From: Candidatus Moraniibacteriota bacterium
Lineage (GTDB): Bacteria > Patescibacteriota > Minisyncoccia > Moranbacterales > UBA11712
Assembly: GCA_028695025.1 (NCBI GenBank)
Contig: JAQVJV010000003.1
Coordinates: 637-64,636 of the forward strand
DNA length: 64,000 bases
Reading direction: 5' to 3'
This document shows positions 13,578 through 31,880 of this stretch, one piece after another. The position numbers and the translations under genes were made by a program. A model generated the notes under the pieces. That model had not been told where the DNA came from and did no database searches. It saw only the letters and a program-made list of their open reading frames with translations. Position 1 is the stretch's first letter. Each line of letters begins with the position of its first letter.

Positions 13578-13617
13578 ACCAAAAAAATTGGGCTTTTGCC
13601 TTTCTTGGATTATATCA

Positions 13618-13650: not shown

Positions 13651-13720
13651 AGGTTTAAAGGCTAAATTCCAAAGACTAAAGCGATGAAGCATAAAGTCAA
13701 CAACTTTGGCCTTTTCGTTG

Positions 13721-15310: not shown

Positions 15311-15425
15311 TTTTTTATTTTTAAGGTTATAAAAGAAATTATAAAAAAAACCTTGTTGCAGATATCTTCTCCCGGCAGGAATGATTTTTTTTCTCTTCGG
15401 ATCCATATTCTGTTTTAAATTATTT

Positions 15426-15917
15426 TTATTTTTTCTCTCCTGCGATGAAATCAACTTCTTCTTCCCGAAATTTTCCGACCAGACCCAACACGTCCGCCTT
15501 GCTGACTATCCCAAGCAACTTTTTGTTTTCATCCACGACGGGAATAGGGTTGACTTTTTTTTCCTGGATAAGCCTGATAAGGTTGGTCACCTTTTCATCC
15601 GGCCGGATCGTGACCGCGTCAATCGACATTATGGAGGAAGCGTCAGCCGATAAGATCTCTTTCAAATTACCAGCTTTCTCCGGGAAATACTTGGAAATTT
15701 TAAGATCTTCCAAAATTTTTATGAGCGACGGGATATGCAATTTCTCAAAATCCCGGGTAAGAAAGTCGTTTTCAGTTATCATCCCGACCAATGCGCCGTC
15801 CTCAACCACGGGAATTCCGCGAAAATTATGATCAATCATCATCTTCGCCACTTCACTGATTTTCGTTTTTGGATCGACCGAAACCACCTCCTTGGTCATT
15901 ATGTCTTCTACTTTCAT
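15426..15917 (-). CDS. CBS-domain pair protein
   Basis: Two CBS modules (…EVVSVDPKTKISEVAKMMIDHNFRGIPVVEDGALVGMITENDFL… and …IMSIDAVTIRPDEKVTNLIRLIQEKKVNPIPVVDENKKLLGIVSKADVL…). Confidence 0.8.
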   Translation of the reverse strand: MKVEDIMTKEVVSVDPKTKISEVAKMMIDHNFRGIPVVEDGALVGMITENDFLTRDFEKLHIPSLIKILEDLKISKYFPEKAGNLKEILSADASSIMSIDAVTIRPDEKVTNLIRLIQEKKVNPIPVVDENKKLLGIVSKADVLGLVGKFREEEVDFIAGEKK

Positions 15918-16032
15918 AAAAAATCTCCTATTGATTTATTATAGCACAAACGCAATCATTCCGTCATTCAGAGTCTGTTAAAAATCTCTTTTTTGGAATT
16001 TGCGGCAGAATACGAAGATTCTGAACAGGCTC

Positions 16033-19298: not shown

Positions 19299-22200
19299 TT
19301 ACTTCTCCTCCACGATAAACCAACTGAATTTGATGTCTTGTGCAATAGCTTCCAAAACGTTTACTGAAAATTCTCCCGTGAGCCTCCCTGTTTCCGCATC
19401 GCGGATTTTTTCGATCCAATAGCGGCTCCCGGGATCGCCCTCGAAGCTCACGAAGATTTTGGCTGTTTCCGTCACCGCCGCAGTCTCCACACGCGCGCTT
19501 TTTCCGTCTACTTTCGTGATATCATCCCAACCGTCATTGTCATCATCTTTTTTTACTGAAAGAACAGTTCCGTCTCCCACTGTTGGCGCGTCCTCGTCGT
19601 TTTTCACCGAATAGGCTCCCGCCACCGTTTCATCCGCTTTCACTTTTTCAGCCTGGACAACTTTGGCTTCGAACAATCCGGCGAGCTTCACGTTTCCGTC
19701 TTCGTCGGTTGTCACGATATTCTCCGGAATCTCCCCGCCTGCCGTGACAGTCATTGTCGCCAATTTGTCCTCAAGATCCTTGATACGATCTTCGTGGTCA
19801 AACACCCGCGCGGTGAGTGTTTTTTCCGTTTCGATCATGGCGCCCAAAGTATCGTTCACCGATGTTTCAAAAGCGAGCAGATTATTTTCGCTTTCAGTGA
19901 GCCTTGTTTCAGCATCGGCAAGTTGAGATTGGAGAGTTGAAATTTGCAACTGCTGGTCGCTGATCGCCGTACCGACTATATTCAATTTATCATTCACCGC
20001 CGTCTGCAGTTCCGCTACGCTGGTTGACTGGCTTTCAATTTGCAACTGCTGGTCGCTGATCGTTGATCCTTGTTCGTTGATCATCGCCTGCTGTTCCTGT
20101 ATCGCCTTTGTGAGCATCGGCGTGAACATGGCATAGCTCAAACCTTTGTATCCGCTAGCGTTGGTGGAAACAAGTTCCGGTGAAATTTTTTCCACGTCCT
20201 GCGCGATGAACCCGGCATGGAGAGGGTCGGAACTATCCTCGCTCTTCATGTGGAAAGTCACCGGATCAAGCGCCATCACCTTGTCGAGCGCGGAATCCAT
20301 GGACTCGATATCTTTTTTCATCCGTACGTCGGAAGTGCTTCCCCAAGTTCCGTCAGAAGTGACGACATAACCCGTCGCTGTTCCGGTATATACTTCGAGT
20401 TTGTAGCCCGGGGCAGTCGTCCCGATGCCGACATTGCCAGCGAAATAGTTTTTATTTGAAGAAGAATATTGATAAACGCCCCAAGTGTTTGTGCCTCCGA
20501 TTGAATCAATATACAGTCCATAGCTATTTGTCACGGTGCCTGTGGCAGAAACACGCGCATATAAAGCTCGCGCATCAGAGATTGTCCCTCCTGATCCTTG
20601 CTGTTCAATATTTCCCACTACTCCATAAGCATTATTTACCGTTCCTGATGTATGAGTTCCGATTACGTAACCTCTTACTCCGGTTATTGAAGTAGCGGTA
20701 TATCCTGCCGGGTTCGTAACAACACCATCAAGTGCCCATAAATTTAGGGCATGTCCATTTTGATTTGAATAATTTGTAGCATTAGCCCTAAATGAAACTG
20801 CGTAATGATCGCCTGTCAACGTTCCTGAAGTTTTAAGGTCGCTGACGGTCAGAAATCGGCTTGCGCTTGAAATATCCACACTATTATCATTTACATACAG
20901 TTTTGCCCCCGGAGTCGTCGTCCCTATCCCCACATTCCCGGAAGTTGCCTGTATCATTGCTCCAAGTGCTGCCGAATTGCTAACGCGAAAATAAATGTCT
21001 GAGGCTGATCTCAACGTCACATCGTCTGATGCCCCCCCTGTAGTTCCGATAAGATCAGAAGATCCAATTAATCCTGAATTTGTTTCCCCGCTGTTCAATA
21101 GTAAATAGGAGTCAAATCGGCTTGTGCCGTTGACATGAAGAAGTCTTTGCGGATTCGTCGTCCCTATCCCCACATTCCCCTGCAATATGGTCTTCGTGAT
21201 CGAGGTGTTTCCGAGGGTTACGGAGTTGCTTCCCGCCCCGATGGCGGAAGCTCCGATGACGATTTCATTCGTGTCCCCGTCGGCGAGGGCTCTCGTGTCA
21301 TATCCGAGATAGAGAGAACTGTAGGAAGTCTGGTTGTTTCCCCCGCCGGAGATGTATCTTCCGGAATAATATCCCAGGGCGGTGTTATTGTATCCGGTGG
21401 TGTTGGAGTAGAGGGAATTCACTCCCAGGGCGGTGTTATTGTATCCGGTGGTGTTGTATTGGAGGGAATTCACTCCCAGGGCGGTGTTATAGTATCCGGT
21501 GGTGTTGGAGTAGAGGGAATTTACTCCCAGAGCAACATTTTGGTATCCGGTGGTGTTGGAGTAGAGGGAACTTGTTCCCAGAGAGGTGTTCGAGTATCCA
21601 GTGGTGTTGGAGTAGAGGGATTGATATCCCAGGGCGGTGTTATTGTATCCGGTGGTGTTGGAGTAGAGGGAATTCACTCCCAGGGCGGTGTTATTGTATC
21701 CGGTGGTGTTGCAGTAGAGGGAATATGTTCCCAGAGCGGTATTAGAGTATCCGGTGGTGTTGCAGTAGAGGGATTGATATCCCAGGGCGGTGTTATTGTA
21801 TCCGGTGGTGTTGTATCTTCCGCCGTATCTTCCGATGAAAGTGTTTGCTAAACTGGCCGTTGACGAGCGGATTTCCAGGGCGGAAGTCCCCGTGCTGTCG
21901 TTCAAGACGTAGGTCGGGCTGTATGTTCCGGTGATCCTTTTTATGGAAATGACAATGGTCCCGTTGAAGTCGGAGGTCGGGGTGATGGAAAGGGTTCCGG
22001 TTCCGGTGGCTTTCGGCCCCCATGTCCCGGTGGAATACAAACCGCCCTTGCTTTCCGAACCGAAAGAGATGGTGAATGTTCCAGCCGTCCTTCCGGTGAC
22101 GGTATAGGATATTTGGTAGAGATAATTTGTGGTGGGAACAACGGTGGTATCGGTGAGGGCGTCCGTGTATCCTGTCGTATGGGTGAATCCGCTGGCGAAG

Positions 22201-25200
22201 TCTCCCGTCCAGTTAGTGGTTCCCCAAGTGTCTCCCGCGGAAAGGAGTTCCGAAGAAAGAGGGGCGGATTCATAGGAAGAGGTGGACTGCATGGTGAGGA
22301 GAGCGGTCGGGCTTGTGGTGCCGATGCCGACGTTCGTTCCATTGTTGAAAAGGTTTCCGGTGGGTGTCCATTGGGTGGTGGAATTGTTCCAATAGAGGGT
22401 TTGTCCTGTATAGGTTCCGGCTTGGGTGATGGCGACAGAGGTTCCTCCGATTGAGAGGTTGGTGGCGTTGATGGTTCCGTTGACGTTCAGGCGATATGTT
22501 CCGATTGCGGTGGTTCCGATTCCCACGTTGGTTCCGTTGTCATATATCGATCCGGTGGAAAGGGTATTGGTTCCGTTCCATCGGGCGACATAGTTTGCAA
22601 GTCCCGTTCCCACGACGGCGGTTCCCGAGGTTCCGACCGAGAGGGTGTTTGATCCTAGGGTAAGGGTTCCGGTGCCTGTTGTGATTGTGTTTCCGTTGTA
22701 GGTTCCTCCCGTCACGTTGCCGGAGGAGGAAACGGTGAAGACATCGGCACCGATCACAAATTTGGAAGTTGGATTCGTCGTTCCTATCCCCACATTCCCC
22801 GAGGAATTCACGGTAACCACCGGAGCTCCGCCAGTGGCTCCCACTCCCAGATTGAAGCGACTGTTAGTCGCGTCGTAGCTCATCCAGGTTTCAGCGGCGG
22901 CGGAGGCGCCGAGGTGAATAGTGTCGCCCCCGAGCCATAGGTTAGCAAAGCGGTAGGAGTTCGATCCGAGATCATAGGTATCATTGGTCATCGGCGTGAT
23001 CGTTTGCGATTGTGCAGAATCGTTGAGAATGACGTAGCCGGAATTTGCCGCAGAGAGATAAAGATTTAAGTTCTCACTCGCCGACTCCGTCTGGATATAT
23101 CCCGGACCGTTGAATTTGATGTATCCAGCGGTGGTGTTAGTCATGTAGAAATCATAGGCCATGGAAACATCTCCCATCGAATTGAAGGTGGTCGGGACGT
23201 TGAAGATGGCTTGAGATGAGCTCACGGTGAGAAGATCAGTGCCGGCGTAGTTCAAGGTGAGAAGATTTCCGGTTCCGTCGCTTCGGACATAGAGGCCGGC
23301 GGCGGCCGCGTTGGTGGAGGAGTTGTAGAAATATCCGATGTAGTCGGAAACTGATCCGCGGGTGTCGAAAATATGGGTCGGGTTGGTGTTTCCTATTCCA
23401 ACATTTCCTCCGCGGGTGACGTTGAGAACTGCCGCGGTATCACCGCGAACTTCAAAAAGTGAGGATGGGCTGGTGGTGCCGATTCCCACATTTCCGGTTG
23501 TCGCCGAGACAAAGAACGGTGTCGTGGCTCCGATCCCGACTTGGAAAAGTCCGGTCGGGCTCGTCGTCCCGATCCCCACGTTCGTTCCATTGTTGAAAAG
23601 GTTTCCCGTGGGTGTCCATTGGGTGGTGGAATTGTTCCAATAGAGGGTTTGTCCGGTATAGGTTCCCGCGGTGGTGAGGGCGAGGGCGGTTCCGTTCATA
23701 TAATAGGAAGCGGCGTTGAGGGAACCGTTGACGTTCAGTTTGTAGGTTCCGACTGATGTGGTGCCGATTCCCACATTCGTCCCGTTGTCATATATCGATC
23801 CGATGGAGAGGGTGTTCGCGTCTGTCCATCTGGCGAGATAGTTTTGGGTTCCGGTTCCAAGAGCCGCGGTTCCTGTTGCGGGAATTGTGAGGGTGTAGGA
23901 CCCCGTGTTAATCGTTCCCGATCCGGAGAGAGTGACGCCGTTGTAGGTCGTGGCATACATTCCCCCGTTCACTTCGAGTTTGTAGTTGGGGTTGGTGGTG
24001 CCGATGCCGACATTGCCTCTAAAATAACTGTTTATTCCGCCGTAGTCCATTCCAATTCTTGCAACTTCTGTATTGGAGCTACCACCAGTAAACTGTAGAC
24101 CGTGGAAGGAACGAAAAATTGCGTTACTTCCATAGGTAGTTTCAATTTTATTATACGAATCCCCTCCATATTGGAAATTCACTGTGTGACCAGAAGTTAA
24201 GCCGCTTATCCCCCAAATCCTGCCATTTGCTGACTGAACAAGTAAATCCCCATTGACAAAAAGTTTGGCACTTGGCGAAGCGCTACCGATTCCTACATTT
24301 GTTCCGTTGTCATATATAACACCGGAAGAAATGGTGTTGGTTCCGGTCCAGCGAGTGACATAGTTTGCAAGTCCCGTTCCCACGGCGGCGGTTCCCGAGG
24401 TTCCGACCGAGAGGGTGTTTGATCCCAGGGTGAGGGTTCCGGTGCCTGTTGTGATTGTGTTTCCGTTGTAGGTTCCTCCCGTCACATTGCCGGAGGAGTT
24501 CACCTGGAATTGGGAAGTGGCACCCACGGAGAGGAGAGCGAGAGGGTTTGTTGTCCCAATTCCGACACTTCCACCGCTTAATATTGTAAGTCTCTCAGAA
24601 ACTCCGCTTTCGACTATATTAAAACTATTATTAGAATCATATCTGTTCATATGCCATTCATTGGCTCCGTTGTCCTTAAATACCAAGCCTTGGTCAGCAA
24701 CACTGTCTATTGCGATATTCCCGTCATATACATGTAATCTTTCACTAGGACTAGATGTCCCGATTCCAACATTGCCGGAAGCAACATTTACTGACAACCA
24801 TTCAATCGGATCGGGTGTGGCTGCAGCATTATAGATAGCGACATTACCCGTACTATCGAGATAACCAACAGCTCCCTTATCTGTTCCGTTTGTTTTGAAA
24901 CGTAATGTGCTTTCACCTCCCGTGCCAGTCGTGTCAATAGTCACATAGGTTGAAGCATTAGTCGCTTTGAATCTTGCGACTCCAATGCCAGTAATATGAA
25001 CTCCGAAAACATCGAGTTTTGTATTCGGACTCGTCGTCCCGATCCCCACGTTGGTTCCGTTGAAGTAGAAGTTGTCGCTTCCGGTGATGATGCCTTGGCC
25101 GGAGAAGTATGATACCTGGTATTGGCTCCCCGTTCCTCCGGCGACATAGTCAGTGCCGGCTGTGGCGGTGGAAAGGGCTCCGGTGCCGGTGGTGACTTTC

Positions 25201-28200
25201 AAGAGTCCCGTGGAAAGGGCGGAACTGACATAGGCTTGGGCGGTGTCGGCGCTCACCGTGGAACCGGAGATGGTGAGGGCAGTGAAGTTTCCGGTTCCGT
25301 TCACGTTCAGCTTGTAGGTTCCGACCGAAGTGGTGCCGATTCCCACGTTGGTTCCGTTGTCATAGATGACAGAACTTGAGATAGCACTGGTTCCATTTCC
25401 TTTGAGGAGATAATTGGAAGAGAAGGTTCCGGCTCCCGTGCCTCCCTGGGAAACATTGAGGTATTGCTGGGAAGTTATGGAGTTGGTTCCGTTCCAGACA
25501 GCTACATAGCCGTTGGTTCCGGTTCCAGTGACAGGATTGGTAAGAGCCGTTTGGAAGTATGAGGCATCGTGTCCTTGGAGATAGTTAGCGTTTAAATTGG
25601 TTATCTCGGTGGAATTGAGGACGGTGAAAGGGGCTCCGGAGTTGTAGTTGAAGGATAGCTGGTTTGTTGTTGATGCCCCTCTTCCGGTGACTGTTGCCAG
25701 GGTGTCAGCTTCTGTTGCGGTAATGGTAAGAGTATCCCCGGAGATTGCCGTTGTGGCTATTCCTCCACCATTGATGGTGAGAGTGTCGGTGGTTGAATTG
25801 GCAGTGGTGTTTCCAGATTGGGAGTTGATGGTGGCCCAGAGGTTTTGGTCTCCGGTGTTGGCGCCGGAGGAACTGCCGGTAAAGTTGGCGGCGGTGATGT
25901 TTCCGGTGAACTCTCCATTTCCTCCCACAGTGAGATTAGAGATGATGTTCGCGCTCCCTCCGATTCTCACATTTCCGGCGACATCAAGTTTCTGGCTCGG
26001 ATTCGTCGTCCCTATCCCCACATTCGTCCCATCATTGAAGAGATTGGCGTTGGCTGTCCAAGCCGATCCGTTCCAATAGAGGGTTTGGCCGGTGATTGAT
26101 CCGTTGGCAGGAAGTCCGGTGGCCAGGGTTCCTGCGGTATATAGACCGTTGGTAAAAGTAAGTCCTCCTGTTGTTTGGGAAGCTCCCGCTGTTCCTCCGG
26201 CATAGTATCCGGTAGCGTTCAAGCTTCCGTTCACGTTTACTCGGTAGGTTCCCACTCCGGTCGTCCCGATCCCCACGTTGGTTCCGTTGAAGTAGAAGTT
26301 GTCGCTTCCGGTGATGATGCCTTGGCCGGAGAAGTATGATACCTGGTATTGGCTCCCCGTTCCTCCGGCGACATAGTCAGTGCCGGCTGTGGCGGTGGAA
26401 AGGGCTCCGGTGCCGGTGGTGACTTTCAAGAGTCCCGTGGAAAGGGCGGAACTGACATAGGCTTGGGCGGTGTCGGCGCTCACCGTGGAACCGGAGATGG
26501 TGAGGGCAGTGAAGTTTCCGGTTCCGTTCACGTTCAGCTTGTAGGTTCCGACCGAAGTGGTGCCGATTCCCACGTTGGTTCCGTTGTCATAGATGACAGA
26601 ACTTGAGATAGCACTGGTTCCATTTCCTTTGAGGAGATAATTGGAAGAGAAGGTTCCGGCTCCCGTGCCTCCCTGGGAAACATTGAGGTATTGCTGGGAA
26701 GTTATGGAGTTGGTTCCGTTCCAGACAGCTACATAGCCGTTGGTTCCGGTTCCAGTGACAGGATTGGTAAGAGCCGTTTGGAAGTATGAGGCATCGTGTC
26801 CTTGGAGATAGTTAGCGTTTAAATTGGTTATCTCGGTGGAATTGAGGACGGTGAAAGGGGCTCCGGAGTTGTAGTTGAAGGATAGCTGGTTTGTTGTTGA
26901 TGCCCCTCTTCCGGTGACTGTTGCCAGGGTGTCAGCTTCTGTTGCGGTAATGGTAAGAGTATCCCCGGAGATTGCCGTTGTGGCTATTCCTCCACCATTG
27001 ATGGTGAGAGTGTCGGTGGTTGAATTGGCAGTGGTGTTTCCAGATTGGGAGTTGATGGTGGCCCAGAGGTTTTGGTCTCCGGTGTTGGCGCCGGAGATAC
27101 TCGCATTTCCCGCCAAAGTGAAGGTGTATGATCCCGAACCTGTCACAATCGTTCCGTTTCCGGAAAGGGTTACTCCGTTATACGTCGCGGCCGTCACCGC
27201 TCCCGCGTTTGTCACCTGGAACTGGTTGGCCGTCCCGACCGCGAGGCCATTGGTCCCGTCCGTCGGGAAAATAGCCCCCCCTGCTAGGCTCCAGATCGTT
27301 CCCGGCCCCCCGCTTGAGATGGCCGTATCCAGATCAGCCAGCACTTCCTGGACGTTCGCGGAGCTTGAGTTCGTGAACCCGCCAGTGAAGGCTCCGACCA
27401 TGTACGCGCCCGAATCGATGGCACTCGTCGCTTCCCCTAGCGACGTGGTTCCGCCGAAGATAAGATTATTCGATGAATTAATATTAATGTTACCGTTTGC
27501 GGTGATATCCGTGAAAGTAGGGCTTGCAACTGTATTGAGTGTGAGACTGATCCCTCCGCCAGCCGTACCGGTTCCTCCGCCGGTGAGATTTCCGGCCGTG
27601 TTCACGACAATCGGAGTAGAACCTTCCGCGACCGTGTTGTTGCTCGAGCCATAGACCGGAGAAATGGTGAGTGTGTTTAAATTGCGGGAAGTCGCGATTC
27701 CGTCGGCGCCCTCGAAGATCGCGCCTTTCTTGGTTTTGATCTGCACTCCGGCATCGGTGGCGGATGTCTGAAGTTTCCAGGAAACATAGTTATCATAATC
27801 CCCTGCCGCCTGATAGTTTCCCGCGGCTTGGAAATAGCTCGCCTTGTGCCCGCCCAAAAGTTCCGCGTTGAGATTCACGTTCAATATCCCGTTCGAAAGC
27901 GGTATGCTTCCGGCGGCGTTCCCGATCGTCTGGCCGGCAATGTTCATGGCCGTGCGTGCGAGCGGCACCGCGCCGATCCTTTTTCGGGGAATCATTTCCG
28001 CATCCTCTCCAACCCGGATGCCGACAAAATAGTTTTCGGCAGCGAAATTCAAATTGGGAAGCGGATTTGCTTCGCCGAGATAAACATCAAGAAGTCCGTT
28101 TTCGACCGCAACCTTTCGGGTTTCTTCCCAAATGCGCGTTCCGGCATCAGTGTCGGAAGGATACGGATCGCTTTCGGTCCGGTCAGCCGTATATATGGAA

Positions 28201-29447
28201 AAGCGGACATCGTATTCTCCGTTGGTGAGTTCCTTGTTCTGGCTGTCCATCAAGTAGGCGGATATTTCGATGTCACCCGGATGCGCTTCAAGGATTTGAT
28301 CGCCGGTTTCGGCCGCTAAGACCAAACCTTTATTGTTTTCCTGTCCACTGCCGCCGGAAGTTTCAGATAATTCATTCACAGCCTCAACTCCCGCGACTTG
28401 TCCCTTGTCCTCTTCATTACTGCCGGTAAGACGCAAACCTGACTTCTCTTCAAACTCTTGTACTTTCTGATGGCGGAACGCATCCTTCGCAAGTTCCGCG
28501 AACTTGTCGGCGCCTACTTTCAGCTGATCCACATTTTCTGCGACCTGGCTTCCCGCAAAACCAGCGACTTTGGAAAGCGCATCCACCCCGCGGTTATATG
28601 AAGCGTAAATTTTTTTCTCGCCCAGGTTTTCCCAATAGGCGAGATCCTTTGAAGTTATGTTACCGACTGCCATCAAAACGACCAGTAAGATGAAAGCCAA
28701 AGCCGGTTTCAAATTGTTGGATGAAAATTCCCGCAGGCTCGCCGACTCGATTTTTTTTCTCAAATCGAACTTCCTGATATTGATCTTATTGGGTTCCCCG
28801 ATCTTGGAAAGTTTAGAAAAACTTTTCTTGATCCCGGCCAGCGCTCCCGCGGACAACCGGCGCAACTCTTCCCAAACAATATCACCTTGAACTTCGCCCC
28901 GGTTTTCGGAAACGGTTTTTTCAATTTCAGCCGGTCCGGAAACAACGCTTCCTTTCTTTTCCGCCTCATCCGTTTTTGCGATTTTGGCGGCGGGCGCTTC
29001 CTTGGGAGAGTTGAGGGAAATGGAATCGCTTTTCAAGAATTCTCTCAACTCCGCTTTTCTTGCCTCGACTTCATCAACCGCGGCTTCCGGAATGGAAATT
29101 TCTTTTGCCGAAATTTTTTCTTCTTTCTTCTCCGCCGCACCTTCTTTTCCGCCGAGTTCTTTCGAAAGCCTTTCTTTGTATTTTTTCTTTTTTTCCTGGG
29201 ACGCTTTTGTGAACTCATTAAGCCATTCTTCGGTCGTATGCCATACGCCTTTTATTTTCTCCGCCTTGAGTTTCCCCTGCCGCGCGGAAAAGTTTATGTA
29301 GTTTTTCGAGTACGCTGAAGTCTTCGCGATTTCAGATAGCGGGATAAAATTCGTCTCTTGTCCGTCTTTTTCAGAAAGCAAAAAACGGCCCTTTTCGGAA
29401 GCGTTTTTGGAATTGATTTTCGGTTTTTTTGTTTCTGTCTTTTTCAT
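19299..29447 (-). CDS. 3382-aa membrane-anchored giant tail-fibre-like protein: cytoplasmic HTH_17 (excisionase-family) N-terminus, single TM, phage-tail-fibre repeat arrays, C-terminal Peptidase_S74 intramolecular chaperone domain and coiled coil
   Basis: The N-terminus FIPLSEIAKTSAYSKNYINFSARQGKLKAEKIKGVWHTTEEWLNEF fits the HTH_17 consensus (…GeL.a.kiGgrWri…). A TM helix follows at LKPALAFILLVVLMAVGN. The extracellular part has dozens of NGTNVGIGTT(S/N)P…L.V.G repeats plus a block of 20-aa NTTGYNNTALGxxSLYS repeats (Phage_fiber_2-like). The C-terminal SDVRMKKDIESMDSALDKVMALDPVTFHMK…HAGFIAQDVEKISPELV matches the S74 autoproteolytic chaperone, followed by a Q-rich coiled coil. Confidence 0.85.
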   Translation of the reverse strand: MKKTETKKPKINSKNASEKGRFLLSEKDGQETNFIPLSEIAKTSAYSKNYINFSARQGKLKAEKIKGVWHTTEEWLNEFTKASQEKKKKYKERLSKELGGKEGAAEKKEEKISAKEISIPEAAVDEVEARKAELREFLKSDSISLNSPKEAPAAKIAKTDEAEKKGSVVSGPAEIEKTVSENRGEVQGDIVWEELRRLSAGALAGIKKSFSKLSKIGEPNKINIRKFDLRKKIESASLREFSSNNLKPALAFILLVVLMAVGNITSKDLAYWENLGEKKIYASYNRGVDALSKVAGFAGSQVAENVDQLKVGADKFAELAKDAFRHQKVQEFEEKSGLRLTGSNEEDKGQVAGVEAVNELSETSGGSGQENNKGLVLAAETGDQILEAHPGDIEISAYLMDSQNKELTNGEYDVRFSIYTADRTESDPYPSDTDAGTRIWEETRKVAVENGLLDVYLGEANPLPNLNFAAENYFVGIRVGEDAEMIPRKRIGAVPLARTAMNIAGQTIGNAAGSIPLSNGILNVNLNAELLGGHKASYFQAAGNYQAAGDYDNYVSWKLQTSATDAGVQIKTKKGAIFEGADGIATSRNLNTLTISPVYGSSNNTVAEGSTPIVVNTAGNLTGGGTGTAGGGISLTLNTVASPTFTDITANGNININSSNNLIFGGTTSLGEATSAIDSGAYMVGAFTGGFTNSSSANVQEVLADLDTAISSGGPGTIWSLAGGAIFPTDGTNGLAVGTANQFQVTNAGAVTAATYNGVTLSGNGTIVTGSGSYTFTLAGNASISGANTGDQNLWATINSQSGNTTANSTTDTLTINGGGIATTAISGDTLTITATEADTLATVTGRGASTTNQLSFNYNSGAPFTVLNSTEITNLNANYLQGHDASYFQTALTNPVTGTGTNGYVAVWNGTNSITSQQYLNVSQGGTGAGTFSSNYLLKGNGTSAISSSVIYDNGTNVGIGTTSVGTYKLNVNGTGNFTALTISGSTVSADTAQAYVSSALSTGLLKVTTGTGALSTATAGTDYVAGGTGSQYQVSYFSGQGIITGSDNFYFNGTNVGIGTTGVGTYRVNVNGSLNATGYYAGGTAGASQTTGGLTFTNGLYTAGTLATGLPANGSITGQTLYWNGSAWTANANLFNDGTNVGIGTTNPSQKLDVAGNVRIGGSANIISNLTVGGNGEFTGNITAANFTGSSSGANTGDQNLWATINSQSGNTTANSTTDTLTINGGGIATTAISGDTLTITATEADTLATVTGRGASTTNQLSFNYNSGAPFTVLNSTEITNLNANYLQGHDASYFQTALTNPVTGTGTNGYVAVWNGTNSITSQQYLNVSQGGTGAGTFSSNYLLKGNGTSAISSSVIYDNGTNVGIGTTSVGTYKLNVNGTGNFTALTISGSTVSADTAQAYVSSALSTGLLKVTTGTGALSTATAGTDYVAGGTGSQYQVSYFSGQGIITGSDNFYFNGTNVGIGTTSPNTKLDVFGVHITGIGVARFKATNASTYVTIDTTGTGGESTLRFKTNGTDKGAVGYLDSTGNVAIYNAAATPDPIEWLSVNVASGNVGIGTSSPSERLHVYDGNIAIDSVADQGLVFKDNGANEWHMNRYDSNNSFNIVESGVSERLTILSGGSVGIGTTNPLALLSVGATSQFQVNSSGNVTGGTYNGNTITTGTGTLTLGSNTLSVGTSGTAAVGTGLANYVTRWTGTNTISSGVIYDNGTNVGIGSASPSAKLFVNGDLLVQSANGRIWGISGLTSGHTVNFQYGGDSYNKIETTYGSNAIFRSFHGLQFTGGSSNTEVARIGMDYGGINSYFRGNVGIGTTNPNYKLEVNGGMYATTYNGVTLSGSGTINTGSYTLTIPATGTAALGTGTQNYLARWTDANTLSIGSIYDNGTNVGIGTTSVGTYKLNVNGSLNAASYYMNGTALALTTAGTYTGQTLYWNNSTTQWTPTGNLFNNGTNVGIGTTSPTGLFQVGIGATTPFFVSATTGNVGIGTTSPSSLFEVRGDTAAVLNVTRGGNVGIGNTNPTHIFDTRGSVSDYIGYFYNSSTNAAAAGLYVRSDGTGNLLTLNYAGTDLLTVSSSQAIFNVPTTFNSMGDVSMAYDFYMTNTTAGYIKFNGPGYIQTESASENLNLYLSAANSGYVILNDSAQSQTITPMTNDTYDLGSNSYRFANLWLGGDTIHLGASAAAETWMSYDATNSRFNLGVGATGGAPVVTVNSSGNVGIGTTNPTSKFVIGADVFTVSSSGNVTGGTYNGNTITTGTGTLTLGSNTLSVGTSGTAVVGTGLANYVARWNGTNTLSTGSIYDNGTNVGIGTTAIGTYRLNVNGTINATNLSIGGTSVAITQAGTYTGQTLYWNNSTTQWTPTGNLFNNGTNVGIGTTSPTALLTMQSTSSYESAPLSSELLSAGDTWGTTNWTGDFASGFTHTTGYTDALTDTTVVPTTNYLYQISYTVTGRTAGTFTISFGSESKGGLYSTGTWGPKATGTGTLSITPTSDFNGTIVISIKRITGTYSPTYVLNDSTGTSALEIRSSTASLANTFIGRYGGRYNTTGYNNTALGYQSLYCNTTGYSNTALGTYSLYCNTTGYNNTALGVNSLYSNTTGYNNTALGYQSLYSNTTGYSNTSLGTSSLYSNTTGYQNVALGVNSLYSNTTGYYNTALGVNSLQYNTTGYNNTALGVNSLYSNTTGYNNTALGYYSGRYISGGGNNQTSYSSLYLGYDTRALADGDTNEIVIGASAIGAGSNSVTLGNTSITKTILQGNVGIGTTNPQRLLHVNGTSRFDSYLLLNSGETNSGLIGSSDLIGTTGGASDDVTLRSASDIYFRVSNSAALGAMIQATSGNVGIGTTTPGAKLYVNDNSVDISSASRFLTVSDLKTSGTLTGDHYAVSFRANATNYSNQNGHALNLWALDGVVTNPAGYTATSITGVRGYVIGTHTSGTVNNAYGVVGNIEQQGSGGTISDARALYARVSATGTVTNSYGLYIDSIGGTNTWGVYQYSSSNKNYFAGNVGIGTTAPGYKLEVYTGTATGYVVTSDGTWGSTSDVRMKKDIESMDSALDKVMALDPVTFHMKSEDSSDPLHAGFIAQDVEKISPELVSTNASGYKGLSYAMFTPMLTKAIQEQQAMINEQGSTISDQQLQIESQSTSVAELQTAVNDKLNIVGTAISDQQLQISTLQSQLADAETRLTESENNLLAFETSVNDTLGAMIETEKTLTARVFDHEDRIKDLEDKLATMTVTAGGEIPENIVTTDEDGNVKLAGLFEAKVVQAEKVKADETVAGAYSVKNDEDAPTVGDGTVLSVKKDDDNDGWDDITKVDGKSARVETAAVTETAKIFVSFEGDPGSRYWIEKIRDAETGRLTGEFSVNVLEAIAQDIKFSWFIVEEK
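21365..21835. repeat. Tandem 60-bp repeat, ~8 copies, encoding 20-aa Phage_fiber_2-like units (NTTGYNNTALGxxSLYS)
   Basis: Seen in the sequence: units of TCCCAGGGCGGTGTTATTGTATCCGGTGGTGTTGGAGTAGAGGGAATTCAC with minor variation. It lies inside the giant gene, is in frame, and has no spacers. Confidence 0.8.
25036..25880. repeat. Copy 1 of a ~845-bp perfect direct repeat inside the giant gene (period 1227 bp)
   Basis: Identical nucleotide blocks at 25036..25880 and 26263..27107. Encoded peptides in the ORF track, including antisense ones, are identical (for example 25122..25379 equals 26349..26606). Confidence 0.8.
26263..27107. repeat. Copy 2 of the ~845-bp perfect direct repeat inside the giant gene
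   Basis: See copy 1. On the minus strand both copies encode GANTGDQNLWATINSQSGNTTANSTTDTLTINGGGIATTAISGDTLTITATEADTLATVTGRGASTTNQLSFNYNSGAPFTVLNSTEITNLNANYLQGHDASYFQ…. Confidence 0.8.
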
Positions 29448-29747
29448 CCCTTGTTAATTCCCTTTTTTATCAGATTTAACCGCTGTATTTATTGGAAAAA
29501 TCGCCTTTTTCTTTTTTATTTTTATTCCCCAGTTTTTTGCGGCTGTTATTTGCTTTATATAAGAGATATAACACTTTATATAATAATTATATTTTTACTA
29601 AAAAATGGCGCAAATGATTTCGCAAAAAGACAGCCTCTTTTTTTAATACAAACCAATTTAGTGAAATTAGCGTATTTGGTTATTGTTTTTCTGGAAAATT
29701 ATTTCTTATTTTTATAAAATTTTAATAATATTTACTTAAGTAAAATA

Positions 29748-29795
29748 AAAACCGATATTTATTTTATATCGATCTTTTTCAAAAATATCGGTTTT
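29748..29795 (-). terminator. Perfect 13-bp inverted repeat (AAAACCGATATTT … AAATATCGGTTTT) flanked by A/T runs, between the ABC operon and the giant gene; candidate terminator or operator
   Basis: Seen in the sequence. The stem is AT-rich, so stability is modest, and it sits in a ~590-bp AT-rich region upstream of the giant gene. Confidence 0.3.
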
Positions 29796-29960
29796 TATTA
29801 AAACACTACTTATCGGATTTCTTATATTTTATTTTATTTATAATTTCGGAGAAACAACCCATCTGATATTTCTATAAAAAATTATTTGCTACAAAAAAAT
29901 TTTGTCAAATCGCCTCAAAAAAATTCGCCGGGAAATATAGTTATCCACAGTTAATTTCAG

Positions 29961-30033
29961 CGAACAGTGAAGAAAGATCGATGAACAATATTTCGCGATT
30001 GATCACTGTTCGCTGATCATTGTTCATCGATCG
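29961..30033 (-). promoter_or_regulatory. Two interleaved perfect inverted repeats immediately 3' of the 216-aa gene stop (CGAACAGTGA/TCACTGTTCG and GATCGATGAACAAT/ATTGTTCATCGATC)
   Basis: Seen in the sequence. The arms are arranged A1-B1-A2-B2, so the hairpins are mutually exclusive or form a pseudoknot. They abut the stop at 30034, and no clean U-tract follows. Confidence 0.3.
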
Positions 30034-30684
30034 TTATCTCTTCGCCCAGCCGAACATCTGGCCGAAAGCGTCGCTCAAAAGATCGAAGATGGAAACGTTC
30101 GGCGCTCCGGTATAGAAAGCGAGCTTTCCGGATTCCGCAAAATTCCCCCATTTGTCTTTTGCGTTCACGACATATGAGTAGGAAGTGCTGTAATTCAATT
30201 TGGTTATTTCGGCGCTATGCACGAATCCATAACCGTCTTCGGAAATTATTTTTCCCTCCGTCTGCCCTTCGCGCATATACTCGATCGAAGAGAGGCACGG
30301 CTTGTTGGTCGTCCAGCTCAAAAGGAACCGGACTTCTTCATCTGTTTTGGTCATCAAAAGTTCTGAGCGCAAATCTTCGATTTCGGGAGCGAGCGACTGC
30401 TGGCCTGACGGAACCGTAATGGCCGCTCCTCCGAAATTGATGTGCGGCGTCCGGAAGTTTTCACTTGAAAAAGAATTTGTCGCATTTTGATTCTCCTCTT
30501 CGCCCAAGACGGATCCGCTCGGACTTTGCTCGTTTGAAATACTGGCCGTTTCCACGTTCGTTTTCTTCTCAATATATTTTGAATAAAGGTACGGAGAAAA
30601 ATATCCGAGTGAAAATATGATCGTGGCCAGGAGCGCGTATTTTGAAAATTTTTTTAATTTCATAAATCCTGAATTATAAATCAA
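30034..30684 (-). CDS. Membrane-anchored small secreted protein with a purple-acid-phosphatase-N-terminal-like (FN3) domain
   Basis: N-terminal anchor KYALLATIIFSLGYF. The C-terminal VRFLLSWTTNKPCLSSIEYMREGQTEGKI…HSAEITKLNYSTSYSYVV resembles the Pur_ac_phosph_N beta-sandwich. The start may be the internal Met (MKLKKF…). Confidence 0.6.
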   Translation of the reverse strand: MIYNSGFMKLKKFSKYALLATIIFSLGYFSPYLYSKYIEKKTNVETASISNEQSPSGSVLGEEENQNATNSFSSENFRTPHINFGGAAITVPSGQQSLAPEIEDLRSELLMTKTDEEVRFLLSWTTNKPCLSSIEYMREGQTEGKIISEDGYGFVHSAEITKLNYSTSYSYVVNAKDKWGNFAESGKLAFYTGAPNVSIFDLLSDAFGQMFGWAKR

Positions 30685-30686
30685 AT

Positions 30687-31865
30687 TTATCGCGAGCTCA
30701 AAGCCTCAAGCGGATCAAGCGAACTCGCCCGTTTGGCCGGACCGATCCCGGTCGCGAACCCGATCACGATCGAGAACAGCAGGATGAATCCCAAAAACCA
30801 CAAAGGATAAGCAAAGAGATCCATCGGCTTCCCGCCGAAATATTTGGCCGCCAGATTGACGATTATATTCACCGCCTGCCCCGACAAAAATCCAAAAAAC
30901 AAACCGGCCAGCCCGCCGCAAAGGCCCATGAGCGTTGATTCAATCACGAATAGAGAAAGAATATCCGTTTTCGAAGCGCCGATTGAGCGCATGATCCCGA
31001 TCTCATTTGTCCTTTCAAGAAGAGTGACCGTCATCGTGTTGAACATTCCGATCGCGGAAACGGCAAGAGTGATGATTCCGAACAAGCCCAGAATGATATT
31101 CACAACACGGAAAAGCTTGTTTACCTCCGCCACCGTTTCCGAAAGGGATGAAACCGTGAAGCCTATTCCGGAAATTTTTTCTTTCACGGAATCCATCACC
31201 TCGCTCGATCGGCATCCCACCTTCGCTTTGGCATACTGCAAACCGCCGGGGAGGTTTAGGTTATCCGGAAGGACGTAGAAAATCGTGTCCTCCCCTTCAA
31301 CAACTCCCGCTATTGCAAAATCAGGCTCATCGATATTGGAACTGCCCTTCCCAGCCGGGGAAAGCAGCGTGAAAGATATCTTCTGGCCGGCCAATTCTTC
31401 CGGATTTTTTCCAAGCGTTTTCCCGATGGCCGCAGTCACCAAAATTTCCTTGGAACTGCTTTTGCCAAGCATTTCTCCTGAAAACACTTTGAGCCCCTCA
31501 AGATTGAGATACCCGAGGGTCGCCACCTCCGCCCGCGAATCAAGGCTTGTATCGCCCAGCGACATCCGCGAATTGAAATTGAAGCTGGTCTCCACGCCGG
31601 AGACGCCTTCTATTTTTTTCATTTCATCAATAGCTTGGCCCGTCAAAAAAATTGCGTCCTGCTCGTTGGGAGAAACGTCAAGCGAGGTGAGCGCCCCGGA
31701 AGCAGTGATTGTCTCAAGAAGGGCGTCCTGGAGGCCGTACCCGAGCGAAACCAAAAACAGGATCGCGCCAAATCCGATCCCCATACCTAAAACCGTGAGG
31801 ATGGTCCTCCCTCTTCGGGCCGTGAACATGCGGGTGGAAAGTTTGAGTATATCGCGGGCAGTCAT
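30687..31865 (-). CDS. ABC transporter permease, MacB/FtsX family, with a large extracytoplasmic domain
   Basis: TM1 is followed by a ~200-aa periplasmic domain and then three C-terminal TMs of the FtsX pattern (…ERTNEIGIMRSIGASKTDILSLFVIESTLMGLCGGLAGL…). It lies immediately downstream of the ATPase gene. Confidence 0.8.
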   Translation of the reverse strand: MTARDILKLSTRMFTARRGRTILTVLGMGIGFGAILFLVSLGYGLQDALLETITASGALTSLDVSPNEQDAIFLTGQAIDEMKKIEGVSGVETSFNFNSRMSLGDTSLDSRAEVATLGYLNLEGLKVFSGEMLGKSSSKEILVTAAIGKTLGKNPEELAGQKISFTLLSPAGKGSSNIDEPDFAIAGVVEGEDTIFYVLPDNLNLPGGLQYAKAKVGCRSSEVMDSVKEKISGIGFTVSSLSETVAEVNKLFRVVNIILGLFGIITLAVSAIGMFNTMTVTLLERTNEIGIMRSIGASKTDILSLFVIESTLMGLCGGLAGLFFGFLSGQAVNIIVNLAAKYFGGKPMDLFAYPLWFLGFILLFSIVIGFATGIGPAKRASSLDPLEALSSR

Positions 31866-31880
31866 AGAAAAGTTTAAAAA

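What the first reader, a model, noticed from the sequence alone, without database searches (positions are those of the whole stretch)
19299..29447. Giant membrane-anchored protein built from phage tail-fibre modules, with a cytoplasmic excisionase-type HTH and a C-terminal autocleaving S74 chaperone
A single 10.1-kb ORF encodes four things in order:
- an N-terminal HTH_17-like DNA-binding motif, …LSEIAKTSAYSKNYINFSARQGKLKAEKIKGVWHTTEEWL…;
- one TM helix, giving ToxR/CadC-like topology;
- about 3000 extracellular residues made of GxGTT(S/N)P beta-helix repeats and 20-aa Phage_fiber_2-like repeats;
- a textbook Peptidase_S74 intramolecular chaperone, SDVRMKKDI…HAGFIAQDVEKISPELV, with a coiled coil and a further ~150-aa C-terminal domain.

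No capsid, terminase, baseplate or tube genes occur anywhere in the 64 kb. This is therefore not a prophage tail fibre but a cellular, membrane-tethered fibre. In a CPR-like genome the obvious role is adhesion to a host cell. Fusing a DNA-binding domain on the cytoplasmic side suggests contact-dependent signalling, or regulated intramembrane release of a transcription factor.
Basis: partly seen in the sequence, partly recalled or inferred. Interest (0 to 1): 0.85.

Follow-up and report, generated by a model that had tools for sequence, protein, structure and literature searches.

The report
Membrane-anchored giant fibre with cytoplasmic HTH
A 3,382-residue chromosomal protein of a tiny candidate-phyla-radiation bacterium carries an excisionase-like domain inside the cell, one membrane helix, and a very long phage-tail-fibre-like stalk outside capped by a self-cleaving chaperone; its inside-plus-membrane anchor recurs on over a thousand surface-protein clusters, and I found no description of it.

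Summary
The ORF (19299-29447, minus strand, 3,382 aa) is real and uninterrupted.

Confirmed:
- a single hydrophobic helix at aa 246-264;
- a Peptidase_S74 chaperone (aa 3039-3093, E 1e-16/1e-17) with the Ser-Asp-x3-Lys catalytic motif;
- a 127-residue helix and a beta-sandwich end domain after it;
- no phage genes anywhere in the 64 kb.

The N-terminal domain gets no direct Pfam hit. It is nevertheless a divergent HTH_17/MerR-type winged helix. Its profile finds about 1,500 protein clusters, 22 of 37 sampled relatives hit HTH_17, and the AlphaFold model matches excisionases and MerR regulators.

Not confirmed: Phage_fiber_2 repeats. The repeat is 17 aa, not 20, and has no Pfam hit.

New here:
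- The gene sits at a fixed chromosomal locus in six Candidatus Moraniibacteriota genomes.
- Its head (1-3 HTH copies, linker, one TM helix) is a module found on many surface proteins, several of them giant. Every relative that carries an organism name is from the radiation.
- Seven full-length relatives repeat the whole HTH-TM-fibre-S74 design.

Best reading: an N-in anchored, trimeric surface fibre for attachment. Its cytoplasmic HTH probably binds DNA or another shared ligand. Signalling is possible but untested.

The parts
19299..29447 (-). Giant ORF, 3,382 aa, including the stop codon
   Evidence: composition T 13.7%, G 12.9%, S 9.8%, N 8.8%, 2 Cys
29181..29354 (-). Cytoplasmic winged HTH (aa 32-89), a divergent HTH_17 / MerR-excisionase type
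28713..29180 (-). K/E-rich cytoplasmic linker (aa 90-245), poorly conserved
   Evidence: 32 K/R and 29 D/E in 156 aa; 26-54% identity over only short stretches (13-80 aa) with relatives
28656..28712 (-). Single transmembrane helix (aa 246-264), N-in signal anchor
   Evidence: The only 19-residue window with Kyte-Doolittle hydropathy above 1.6 in the protein. Basic N-flank. Same position in relatives.
28248..28655 (-). Juxtamembrane extracellular segment (aa 265-400)
   Evidence: 38-44% identity to subfamily representatives; no family hit
27768..28247 (-). Highly conserved membrane-proximal ectodomain (aa 401-560), function unknown
   Evidence: 69-75% identity to subfamily representatives; no Pfam hit and no significant PDB sequence match (best E 1.1)
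20334..27767 (-). Fibre shaft (aa 561-3038): modules opening with the G(T/N)NVGIGTT(S/N)P motif, 18 occurrences
   Evidence: no Pfam hit; the same motif recurs in 23 other family members
26260..27096 (-). First copy of the 837-nt perfect internal duplication
   Evidence: 279 aa exact
25033..25869 (-). Second copy of the 837-nt perfect internal duplication
21321..21881 (-). About 10-11 tandem 17-aa repeats NTTGYxNTALGxxSLYS (51-nt period)
   Evidence: no Pfam or PDB hit
20169..20333 (-). Peptidase_S74 intramolecular chaperone core (aa 3039-3093), with S3039-D3040-x3-K3044
   Evidence: The dyad is present in all 16 aligned sequences that cover this region (the window protein plus 15 relatives). 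255 phage records match only this part.
19755..20135 (-). Single long helix (aa 3105-3231), probably a trimeric coiled coil
   Evidence: AF2 H90-216 of the fragment, pLDDT 78-95; conserved in Moran(ii)bacteria relatives
19311..19580 (-). C-terminal beta-sandwich domain (aa 3290-3379)
   Evidence: AF2. Weak Foldseek matches to 93-113-residue parts of phage tailspike/depolymerase chains and to Helix pomatia lectin. 66% identity to P0007.
29448..30033 (-). AT-rich (26% GC) upstream region with blocks conserved in the orthologs compared, including the gene's own promoter-like site and 5'UTR
30034..33488 (-). Conserved syntenic neighbours: ABC ATPase (535 aa), FtsX/MacB permease (392 aa), 216-aa membrane protein

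Best explanation
This is a conserved chromosomal gene of a Candidatus Moraniibacteriota (CPR/Patescibacteria) bacterium. It encodes a type-II (N-in, C-out) membrane-anchored surface fibre.

Anatomy, shown here:
- The first 245 residues have no signal peptide or other hydrophobic segment and so stay in the cytoplasm. They carry one MerR/excisionase-type winged HTH followed by a flexible charged linker.
- One helix spans the membrane.
- About 3,100 residues lie outside.

Assembly, inferred from the S74 family. The C-terminal S74 chaperone, with an intact Ser-Lys dyad, nucleates trimerisation of the fibre modules. It then cuts itself off at S3039, shedding the coiled coil and the beta-sandwich end domain. 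What remains is an SDS-stable trimeric stalk on the order of 100 nm long. As in a phage tail fibre, its free C-terminal end is the distal, ligand-binding tip. The likely role is attachment to a host cell or a surface.

The anchor, shown here. The cytoplasmic HTH plus TM is not a one-off fusion. It is a CPR-wide N-terminal anchor module of 1-3 HTH copies.

Role of the HTH, inferred. Each trimer presents 3-9 HTH domains under the membrane. I think the most likely role is multivalent binding of DNA, or of one conserved ligand, at the base of the fibre. That would be a tether or positioning device, with autoregulation possible, rather than a gene-specific ToxR-like switch.
For: - The ORF is intact with a single TM.
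- S74 scores 60-64 bits against a cutoff of 22. The SDxxxK dyad is present in the window protein and all 15 aligned relatives that cover this region. This dyad is the catalytic pair in endosialidases and MYRF (PMC3742443).
- The C-terminal model shows the S74 core, a 127-aa helix and a beta-sandwich.
- The HTH profile finds 1,495 clusters at E<=1e-3. Among the top 150, 107 have two copies, 38 have one and 5 have three. Of the 99 that are at least 300 aa, 93 have a TM within 320 aa after the last copy (median 52). 11 are at least 3,000 aa.
- 22 of 37 relatives hit HTH_17, best E 2.6e-8.
- The AF2 model (pLDDT 86) has beta-alpha-alpha-beta-beta-alpha order. It matches Pukovnik Xis, the RdfS excisionase, MerR regulators, RacA, BldC and TraN.
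- The HTH is the most conserved segment, at 73-85% identity.
- Y22, S23, Y26, R32, K35, K40, W45 and T47 of the domain are at least 90% conserved among 73 sequences.
- Chromosomal: synteny in six genomes, housekeeping neighbours, and no relative of the HTH module in viral contigs.
- Seven full-length relatives share HTH-TM-fibre-S74.
- All relatives that carry an organism name are CPR.
Against: - No experiment supports any step. Trimerisation, cleavage, surface exposure and DNA binding are all inferred.
- The window's own HTH fails Pfam and NCBIfam thresholds.
- The shaft (aa 561-3038) has no family or structure match, so its trimeric beta-fibre nature rests on the S74 context and on composition.
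- TM and topology rest on a hydropathy scan and the positive-inside rule only.
- The 837-nt perfect repeat may be an assembly effect.
Confidence: 0.6

Rival explanations
1. ToxR/CadC-like membrane-bound transcription factor. Engagement or tension of the fibre outside changes how the tethered HTH binds a specific operator, or triggers intramembrane proteolysis that releases it. Host contact would then reprogramme transcription.
For: - The topology matches: cytoplasmic DNA-binding fold, one TM helix, external domain.
- The MerR/excisionase fold is mostly sequence-specific DNA binding.
- The upstream region holds a sequence-conserved palindrome AAAACCGATATTT-N20-AAATATCGGTTTT plus a third half-site-like box. 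These are conserved in sequence, without covariation, in the orthologs compared. They could be an operator.
Against: - The same HTH, with nearly invariant polar recognition-helix residues, heads proteins with many different ectodomains in relatives named from several CPR groups, often as near-identical tandem copies. That is not expected for gene-specific regulators.
- The external part is a 3,100-aa structural fibre, not a sensor domain.
- S74 cleavage is distal and cannot release the HTH.
- No site-2 protease link was found.
- The palindrome is equally well explained as a terminator hairpin followed by a T-run.
Confidence: 0.2
2. RodZ-like use of an HTH fold for protein binding. The cytoplasmic domains would dock the fibre base to a conserved cytoplasmic partner (cytoskeleton, division or secretion machinery). 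Alternatively they act as a sorting or retention signal for very large type-II membrane proteins, with no DNA involved.
For: - RodZ is a bitopic protein with its N-terminus in the cytoplasm, carrying an HTH required for its function in cell shape (PMC4890886).
- Protein-binding members of this fold, CbpM and DafA, are among the structural matches.
- Cross-phylum invariance of surface residues fits a single conserved partner.
- The module precedes unrelated ectodomains, as a signal would.
Against: - The domain is basic: 12 K/R against 6 D/E.
- The conserved residues include R, K and K on the recognition helix and wing, where MerR-type domains contact DNA.
- Sequence homology is to HTH_17 / excisionase DNA binders.
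Confidence: 0.17
3. A prophage or phage-derived tail fibre gene that happens to lie in this window.
For: S74 and the region around it match phage tail fibres: PHROG 33119, PDB 6f45, and 255 phage records.
Against: - No capsid, terminase, tube, baseplate or integrase gene in the 64 kb.
- Fixed chromosomal synteny in six genomes.
- Phage matches cover only about a third of the C-terminal fragment.
- The N-terminus is HTH+TM, not a virion-attachment domain.
- The HTH module has no relative in IMG/VR.
Confidence: 0.02
4. An assembly or gene-calling artefact that fuses a small HTH gene to a separate fibre gene.
For: The gene is repetitive and contains an 837-nt perfect duplication. The ortholog in L001 is broken by frameshifts.
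Against: - Five independent MAGs show the same uninterrupted HTH-TM-ectodomain reading frame.
- Seven full-length representatives carry HTH, TM and S74 in one protein.
- L001 also splits MetRS, so its frameshifts are sequencing errors.
- The duplication lies far from the HTH/TM junction and keeps the frame.
Confidence: 0.01

Closest known systems
Phage tail fibres and tailspikes with a C-terminal intramolecular chaperone (Peptidase_S74 / ICA; endosialidase K1F, phage S16 long tail fibre, T5 L-shaped fibre), and the cellular proteins that NCBI names 'tail fiber domain-containing protein'
   Same: - C-terminal S74 with the Ser-Lys dyad, followed by a helix.
- Fibre polarity: N-terminus anchored, C-terminus distal.
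- NCBI already labels C-terminal fragments of the Moranbacteria relatives this way.
   Different: - Anchored in a cell membrane by HTH+TM rather than to a virion.
- Chromosomal, at a conserved locus.
- The chaperone is extended by a 127-aa helix and a beta-sandwich domain. Full-coverage matches (P0269-P0284) that carry an organism name are all Moranbacteria/Patescibacteria.
- The shaft has no Pfam or PHROG match.
ToxR / CadC / TcpP-type bitopic one-component regulators
   Same: Cytoplasmic N-terminal winged-helix domain, one TM helix, extracytoplasmic C-terminus.
   Different: The HTH is MerR/excisionase type, not OmpR type (no Trans_reg_C hit). It is often tandem. The external part is a giant structural fibre. 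The module is shared by many different proteins.
MYRF (myelin regulatory factor) family
   Same: As far as I know, the only described proteins that combine a DNA-binding domain, a TM helix and an S74/ICA domain in one type-II membrane protein that trimerises (PMC3742443).
   Different: In MYRF the order is DBD-ICA-TM, all on the cytoplasmic side, so cleavage frees the DBD. Here the order is DBD-TM-fibre-ICA, so cleavage happens outside and cannot free the DBD. The DBD type also differs: Ndt80-like in MYRF against MerR-like here.
RodZ
   Same: Bitopic protein with an N-terminal cytoplasmic HTH, a single TM helix and an external C-terminus. The HTH is needed for a role in cell shape.
   Different: By general knowledge the RodZ HTH is Xre-type, and no Xre-type family appeared in the Pfam scans here. 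RodZ has a small external domain. No homology was detected.
RacA (B. subtilis chromosome-anchoring protein) and TraN (pIP501)
   Different: Both are soluble proteins. RacA reaches the membrane through a partner, and neither has a TM helix or an ectodomain.
Giant surface proteins of ultra-small or predatory bacteria (for example the Omnitrophota giant genes, bioRxiv 10.1101/2023.11.21.568195)
   Same: Very long, repeat-rich, predicted attachment proteins in uncultured lineages.
   Different: Those are described with signal peptides and N-terminal C39/S8 peptidase domains. The dockerin-type ones have C-terminal TM and intracellular regions. The text has no mention of 'S74' or 'helix-turn-helix'.

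Membership tests
Peptidase_S74 / intramolecular chaperone auto-processing (ICA) domain | Pfam PF13884 match above the gathering score | tested here: met
   60 bits (whole protein) and 64 bits (fragment) against a cutoff of 22; aa 3039-3093 cover profile positions 1-57 of 58
Peptidase_S74 / intramolecular chaperone auto-processing (ICA) domain | Catalytic Ser-Lys dyad in the motif S-D-x-x-x-K | tested here: met
   S3039, D3040, K3044. The same motif is in all 16 aligned sequences that cover this region, the window protein included. The dyad definition is from PMC3742443.
Peptidase_S74 / intramolecular chaperone auto-processing (ICA) domain | Lies C-terminal to a trimeric beta-helix or fibre and is followed by a helical bundle | tested here: inconclusive
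   The helix after the core is predicted with high confidence. The preceding shaft was not modelled and has no family hit.
Peptidase_S74 / intramolecular chaperone auto-processing (ICA) domain | Trimerisation-dependent autocleavage | not testable with these tools
   Needs expression of the C-terminal fragment and S3039A / K3044A mutants
HTH_17 (PF12728) / excisionase-type MerR-like winged helix | Direct Pfam or NCBIfam match of the window protein | tested here: not met
   No HTH_17 hit at E<=10 for aa 1-100, aa 1-300 or aa 30-85; no NCBIfam hit
HTH_17 (PF12728) / excisionase-type MerR-like winged helix | Homology through intermediate sequences | tested here: met
   - The window-subfamily profile retrieves relatives at E 1e-11 to 1e-43.
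- 22 of 37 of them hit PF12728, best E 2.6e-8.
- P0013 scores 44.9 bits against a cutoff of 27 and also matches TIGR01764 'excise' at E 1.9e-5, below that model's cutoff (24.9 vs 28.8 bits).
- JGI names one relative an excisionase-family DNA-binding protein.
HTH_17 (PF12728) / excisionase-type MerR-like winged helix | Fold: beta-strand, two helices, a two-stranded wing, a C-terminal helix | tested here: met
HTH_17 (PF12728) / excisionase-type MerR-like winged helix | Binds DNA | not testable with these tools
   Only indirect support: net charge +6, and conserved R/K on helix 2 and the wing
ToxR/CadC-type membrane-bound regulators | N-in bitopic topology with a cytoplasmic DNA-binding domain | tested here: met
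   Single hydrophobic segment at aa 246-264 with a basic N-flank; prediction only
ToxR/CadC-type membrane-bound regulators | OmpR/PhoB-type winged helix (Trans_reg_C) | tested here: not met
   No such Pfam hit; the fold matches the MerR/excisionase class instead
ToxR/CadC-type membrane-bound regulators | External sensor domain that controls transcription | not testable with these tools
   The external part is a roughly 3,100-aa fibre; regulation was not assessed
Prophage tail fibre | Embedded among phage structural and packaging genes | tested here: not met
   33 neighbouring ORFs across the 64 kb are housekeeping, transport or surface proteins, or have no hit; synteny in six genomes
Prophage tail fibre | Phage_fiber_2 or other phage fibre repeats in the shaft | tested here: not met
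   No Pfam hit at E<=1 in nine overlapping 400-aa pieces; the only PHROG hit covers the S74 region
MYRF-type membrane transcription factors | Domain order DBD - ICA - TM, so that ICA cleavage releases the DBD | tested here: not met
   The order here is HTH (32-89) - TM (246-264) - fibre - S74 (3039-3093)
Trimeric autotransporter adhesins | C-terminal YadA-type outer-membrane anchor and YadA head/stalk repeats | tested here: not met
   No YadA_anchor, YadA_head or YadA_stalk hit. The 17-aa NTTGYxNTALG repeat only resembles head repeats by eye.

The most novel reading that the evidence does not exclude
The tandem excisionase-like HTH + single TM head is a CPR-wide device, not described before, that links surface fibres and other ectodomains to the chromosome. 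It would act either as a multivalent nucleoid tether or as a contact- or tension-responsive membrane-bound DNA-binding switch. Its operator could be the conserved CCGAT palindrome upstream of the gene. That would make these proteins a new class of 'DNA-anchored adhesins' in ultra-small episymbiotic bacteria.
Probability: 0.3. Interest if true: 0.85.

Novelty: new variant of a known kind. Interest (0 to 1): 0.62.

Why it matters
How CPR/Patescibacteria, which make up a large share of bacterial diversity, attach to and sense their hosts is largely unknown, and most of their surface proteins are unannotated.

This locus shows two things.
- A phage-type fibre assembly device (the S74 chaperone) is used for a conserved chromosomal cell-surface structure.
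- An excisionase-like HTH followed by one membrane helix is a common N-terminal head for CPR surface proteins. It occurs in about 1,500 clusters at 50% identity, and 11 of the 150 best-scoring ones exceed 3,000 aa.

The module gives a simple sequence handle for cataloguing candidate CPR adhesins. It also raises a testable question: does it bind DNA, and if so, do these tiny cells couple their surface fibres to the nucleoid or to transcription? The module could further improve annotation, since these proteins are currently labelled 'hypothetical', 'tail fiber domain-containing' or 'excisionase family'.

Tried and rejected
- Direct Pfam scans of the whole protein, of N-terminal pieces and of nine overlapping 400-aa pieces found only S74. 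There was no HTH_17 and no Phage_fiber_2.
- NCBIfam gave nothing for the window protein.
- PHROGs matched only the S74 region.
- PDB sequence searches gave no significant match. This covered the HTH profile, the whole protein, aa 380-620 and the 17-aa repeat region.
- A whole-protein search of the 5.8-billion-protein database timed out.
- The 37-sequence HTH alignment was too diverse for the genome scan, so I used the 3-sequence alignment instead.
- The IMG/VR scan for the HTH module found no relative.
- I checked for an N-terminal extension like that of the orthologs. None is encoded upstream: the region is non-coding and 26% GC.
- No further copy of the HTH domain is in the window. The C-terminal extension of the neighbouring ABC ATPase is unrelated to it.
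- Rfam found nothing in the window or in the upstream region.
- The DnaA-box count in the window is not above chance, so this is not an origin.
- Nine literature searches, plus term look-ups in two candidate papers, found no description of an HTH-TM module or of S74 fibres in CPR.
- I considered and rejected prophage, assembly chimera, MYRF-like release of the HTH by S74, and trimeric autotransporter. The reasons are in the membership tests.
Full report
**1. The observation**

The minus strand of the window carries one open reading frame from 29447 down to 19299, 3,382 codons with no internal stop. By my own arithmetic, (61/64)^3382 is about e^-162, so this is not a chance ORF. The product is rich in Thr, Gly, Ser and Asn and has only two Cys.

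A Kyte-Doolittle scan finds a single hydrophobic stretch, aa 246-264. The 20 residues before it hold five K/R. The 20 after it are net neutral.

Pfam finds one significant family, Peptidase_S74, at aa 3039-3093. It scores 60 bits in the whole protein and 64 bits in the C-terminal fragment, against a cutoff of 22.
- PHROG 33119 (long tail fibre distal subunit) matches only aa 3029-3130.
- PDB 6f45 (a phage long tail fibre tip) matches the same part.
- 255 phage records match it, at 32-36% identity in the ten best listed, and never cover more than about a third of the last 367 residues.

Two items of the finding do not hold as written.
- No Phage_fiber_2 or other repeat family is detected, even at E<=1, in nine overlapping 400-aa pieces. 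The tandem repeat near aa 2523-2709 has a 51-nt = 17-aa period (NTTGYxNTALGxxSLYS, about 10-11 units), not 20 aa.
- The 'GxGTTSP' motif is real: G(T/N)NVGIGTT(S/N)P occurs 18 times. Its spacing is irregular, from 29 to 386 aa. It therefore marks the starts of modules and is not a regular beta-helix repeat.

The gene also contains an 837-nt perfect duplication at an offset of 1,227 nt. Long exact internal repeats also occur in relatives from other assemblies: 265 aa in P0099, 83 aa in P0007, 61 aa in P0146. This may be a family trait, but the exact length of this gene needs long-read confirmation.

**2. The N-terminal domain**

The window's own sequence gives no HTH_17 hit at E<=10 and no NCBIfam hit.

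- *Sequence relatives.* I built a profile from the window and its two closest relatives and scored it against 1.84 billion cluster representatives. It found 1,495 proteins at E<=1e-3 and 160 at E<=1e-10. Of 37 domain copies taken from these, 22 hit PF12728 on their own, best E 2.6e-8. One relative scores 44.9 bits against a cutoff of 27 and also matches TIGR01764 'excise' at E 1.9e-5, below that model's cutoff.
- *Predicted fold.* An AlphaFold model of aa 25-100, made with a 73-sequence alignment, has pLDDT 86. Its order is strand, helix, helix, two-stranded wing, long helix.

**3. What the family search revealed**

The HTH+TM head is a recurrent module. Among the best 150 representatives:
- 107 have two tandem copies, 38 have one and 5 have three.
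- The first copy starts at a median of residue 11.5.
- Of the 99 proteins that are at least 300 aa, 93 have a hydrophobic helix within 320 residues after the last copy, at a median gap of 52.
- 30 are at least 1,000 aa, 18 at least 2,000 aa and 11 at least 3,000 aa. The longest is 6,890 aa.

Nine mid-sized members showed almost no Pfam domain in their ectodomains; one has an intein. Twenty-three members carry the GNVGIG motif at least twice. Seven full-length members (P0004, P0006, P0007, P0032, P0135, P0136, P0146; 1,779-4,120 aa) also end in S74. The complete design HTH-TM-fibre-S74 therefore recurs, including in distant members with two HTH copies.

Every relative that carries an organism name is from the CPR:
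- Moraniibacteriota/Moranbacteria, Nealsonbacteria, Gribaldobacteria, Torokbacteria and Azambacteria;
- records labelled only 'Parcubacteria group' or 'Patescibacteria group'.

Within the domain, Y22, S23, Y26, L27, L29, R32, G34, K35, T47 and Y55 are at least 90% conserved, and K40 and W45 are invariant, in 73 sequences. Several of these are polar residues on helix 2 and the wing. The window protein keeps all the polar ones. Its domain has 12 K/R against 6 D/E.

**4. Genomic context**

All other window genes scanned are cellular:
- ATP synthase a; MetRS, IleRS and a class-II aminoacyl-tRNA synthetase;
- TatD, RsmI-like methylase, AI-2E transporter, M16 peptidase;
- TGT, RecO, a GT4 glycosyltransferase, AcrB/HlyD.

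A run of large surface-type proteins lies at 2195-18948; N-terminal signal-like hydrophobic segments were seen by eye.

Five GTDB genomes, all Candidatus Moraniibacteriota, and one ENA contig carry the ortholog. In all six the order ABC ATPase / FtsX-MacB permease / 216-aa protein / giant gene is kept, with TatD found upstream in three. P0007 has the same neighbours. P0146 lies next to MetRS, LeuRS and rpoB/rpoC.

In the five MAGs the reading frame runs uninterrupted from the HTH through the TM helix into the ectodomain until the contig ends. The ENA contig is frameshifted, but it also splits MetRS, so those are sequencing errors. The HTH module has no relative in IMG/VR. Prophage and chimera explanations are therefore rejected.

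**5. The C-terminus**

The motif S3039-D-V-R-M-K3044 matches the S-D-x3-K catalytic dyad described for endosialidases and MYRF (PMC3742443). It is present in the window protein and all 15 aligned relatives that cover this region.

The AlphaFold model of the last 367 residues (pLDDT 72) has four parts:
- the S74 core;
- one continuous helix at aa 3105-3231;
- a disordered linker;
- a beta-sandwich at aa 3290-3379.

The sandwich weakly resembles 93-113-residue parts of phage tailspike and depolymerase chains, and Helix pomatia lectin. Only 16 relatives (P0269-P0284) align beyond the S74 part. Most cover nearly the whole fragment, though a few truncated ones cover only 58-67%. Those with an organism name are all Moranbacteria or Patescibacteria. 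Non-CPR S74 proteins align to the S74 part alone.

**6. How it most likely works**

*Shown.* The architecture, the homologies, the conservation and the chromosomal context.

*Inferred from the S74 literature.* The three C-termini associate through the chaperone. The shaft then folds as a trimer, and the chaperone cuts itself off. Because the anchor is N-terminal, the new C-terminus is the distal tip, as in phage fibres. The released coiled coil plus beta-sandwich would be shed or stay bound non-covalently. By analogy with the T4 long tail fibre (my own estimate), about 2,800 residues per chain would give a stalk on the order of 100 nm. A role in attachment to a host or a surface is plausible for an ultra-small CPR cell but is untested.

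*The HTH.* Segment conservation against five subfamily representatives:

| Segment | Identity |
|---|---|
| HTH | 73-85% |
| Membrane-proximal domain, aa 401-560 | 69-75% |
| Juxtamembrane segment | 38-44% |
| S74 | 35-41% |
| Linker | barely alignable |

So the HTH is under strong constraint. It is basic. It would be presented in 3-9 copies per trimer and sits on a flexible linker. Its recognition surface is nearly the same in proteins with many different ectodomains, from relatives named from several CPR groups.

I read this as multivalent binding of DNA, or of one shared ligand, at the base of the fibre. That is a tether or positioning function, as in RacA or TraN. A gene-specific ToxR-like switch and a RodZ-like protein-binding or sorting role are the live rivals. 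S74 cleavage cannot release the HTH. This is the key difference from MYRF, where the order is DBD-ICA-TM.

**7. Comparison and novelty**

The parts are known kinds: the S74 chaperone, the MerR/excisionase HTH and the bitopic HTH protein. NCBI already labels fragments of these proteins 'tail fiber domain-containing protein'.

I could not find two things described, in nine literature searches plus look-ups in two candidate papers:
- the tandem HTH_17-like + TM head as a widespread CPR anchor module;
- its combination with giant S74-capped fibres at a conserved chromosomal locus.

I rate it a new variant of known kinds, of moderate-to-high interest. The interest lies more in the family-wide module than in this single gene.

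**8. Side observation**

The 586-nt AT-rich region upstream (29448-30033) contains blocks conserved in the orthologs compared:
- a perfect DnaA-box-like TGTGGATAA, present in five of the six syntenic orthologs (not L006) and the only perfect copy in the window;
- a TTGACA-16-AATAAT promoter-like site;
- a sequence-conserved palindrome or hairpin followed by a T-run, at a constant 165-167 nt from that promoter;
- a second promoter-like block and a conserved 5'UTR.

Rfam has no match. This could be a small RNA, an attenuating leader for the giant gene, or a protein-binding site. I did not resolve which.

Noticed in passing
window 29744-29949 (read on the minus strand); L001 9538-9704, L002 5446-5611, L003 5255-5421, L004 5258-5424, L005 5138-5304, L006 5243-5409: A unit of conserved length (165-167 nt) lies between the MacB-type ABC operon and the giant gene. 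It has a TTGACA-16-AATAAT promoter-like site, a conserved AAATCCGAT box, then a sequence-conserved palindrome AAAACCGATATTT...AAATATCGGTTTTT followed by a T-run. The stem shows no covariation, so it could be a terminator hairpin of a ~130-nt small RNA or leader, or a protein operator. No Rfam match.
   Followed up: partly
window 29941-29949 (+): A perfect DnaA-box sequence TTATCCACA, the only perfect copy in the 64 kb. It sits just after the stop of the 216-aa gene and is conserved as CTGTGGATAACT in four orthologs and CTATGGATAACT in L005 (absent in L006). The count of near-matches in the window is not above chance, so this is not an origin signature.
   Followed up: partly
window 29960-30030 (minus strand): Two interleaved 13-14-nt perfect inverted repeats (GATCGATGAACAAT...ATTGTTCATCGATC and CAGCGAACAGTGA...TCACTGTTCGCTG) lie immediately downstream of the 216-aa gene. 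They are present in the window and not seen in the upstream regions of the orthologs.
   Followed up: no
window 25033-25869 and 26260-27096: An 837-nt perfect direct duplication inside the giant gene (279 aa exact). Similar long exact internal repeats occur in relatives from other assemblies: P0099 265 aa, P0007 83 aa. It is either recent duplication or gene conversion, or a repeat-assembly effect.
   Followed up: partly
window 2195-18948 (minus strand): A run of large surface-type proteins lies downstream of the giant gene (N-terminal signal-like hydrophobic segments seen by eye):
- 971 aa with CHB_HEX_C/Fn3_assoc;
- 577 aa with a weak FN3-like hit;
- 1,818 aa with five Laminin_G_3 domains plus DUF2341;
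- 1,027 aa with Calx-beta, a pectate-lyase-like fold and dockerin;
- 680 aa with Laminin_G_3 and dockerin.

Together they look like a surface-protein island.
   Followed up: no
window 30034-33488 (minus strand): The ABC ATPase (535 aa) has a ~290-aa C-terminal extension with short 'G(K/Q)L..(A/E)WEL'-type repeats. It is conserved at 69-73% identity in orthologs. With the FtsX/MacB permease and a 216-aa membrane protein, it is always immediately upstream of the giant gene in this lineage. The extension is unrelated to the HTH domain.
   Followed up: partly
L008 1-1706 and L009 226-1713: The contigs that carry the 4,120-aa relative P0007 also encode a second, shorter S74-containing protein (495-698 aa) about 8 kb upstream. 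A genome can therefore hold several S74 fibre genes.
   Followed up: no
P0080 (1,205 aa family member), aa 727-989: One member of the HTH-TM family carries an intein splicing domain in its ectodomain (Pfam PF14890, E 1.4e-24).
   Followed up: no
window 29448-29560 compared with L001-L006: The window protein lacks the ~70-100-aa N-terminal extension (IFFGKA...VRAKL..LYGG) that precedes the HTH in five of the six syntenic orthologs (L002 has only about 35 residues before its HTH). The window has non-coding AT-rich DNA there, so this extension is dispensable or was lost.
   Followed up: yes
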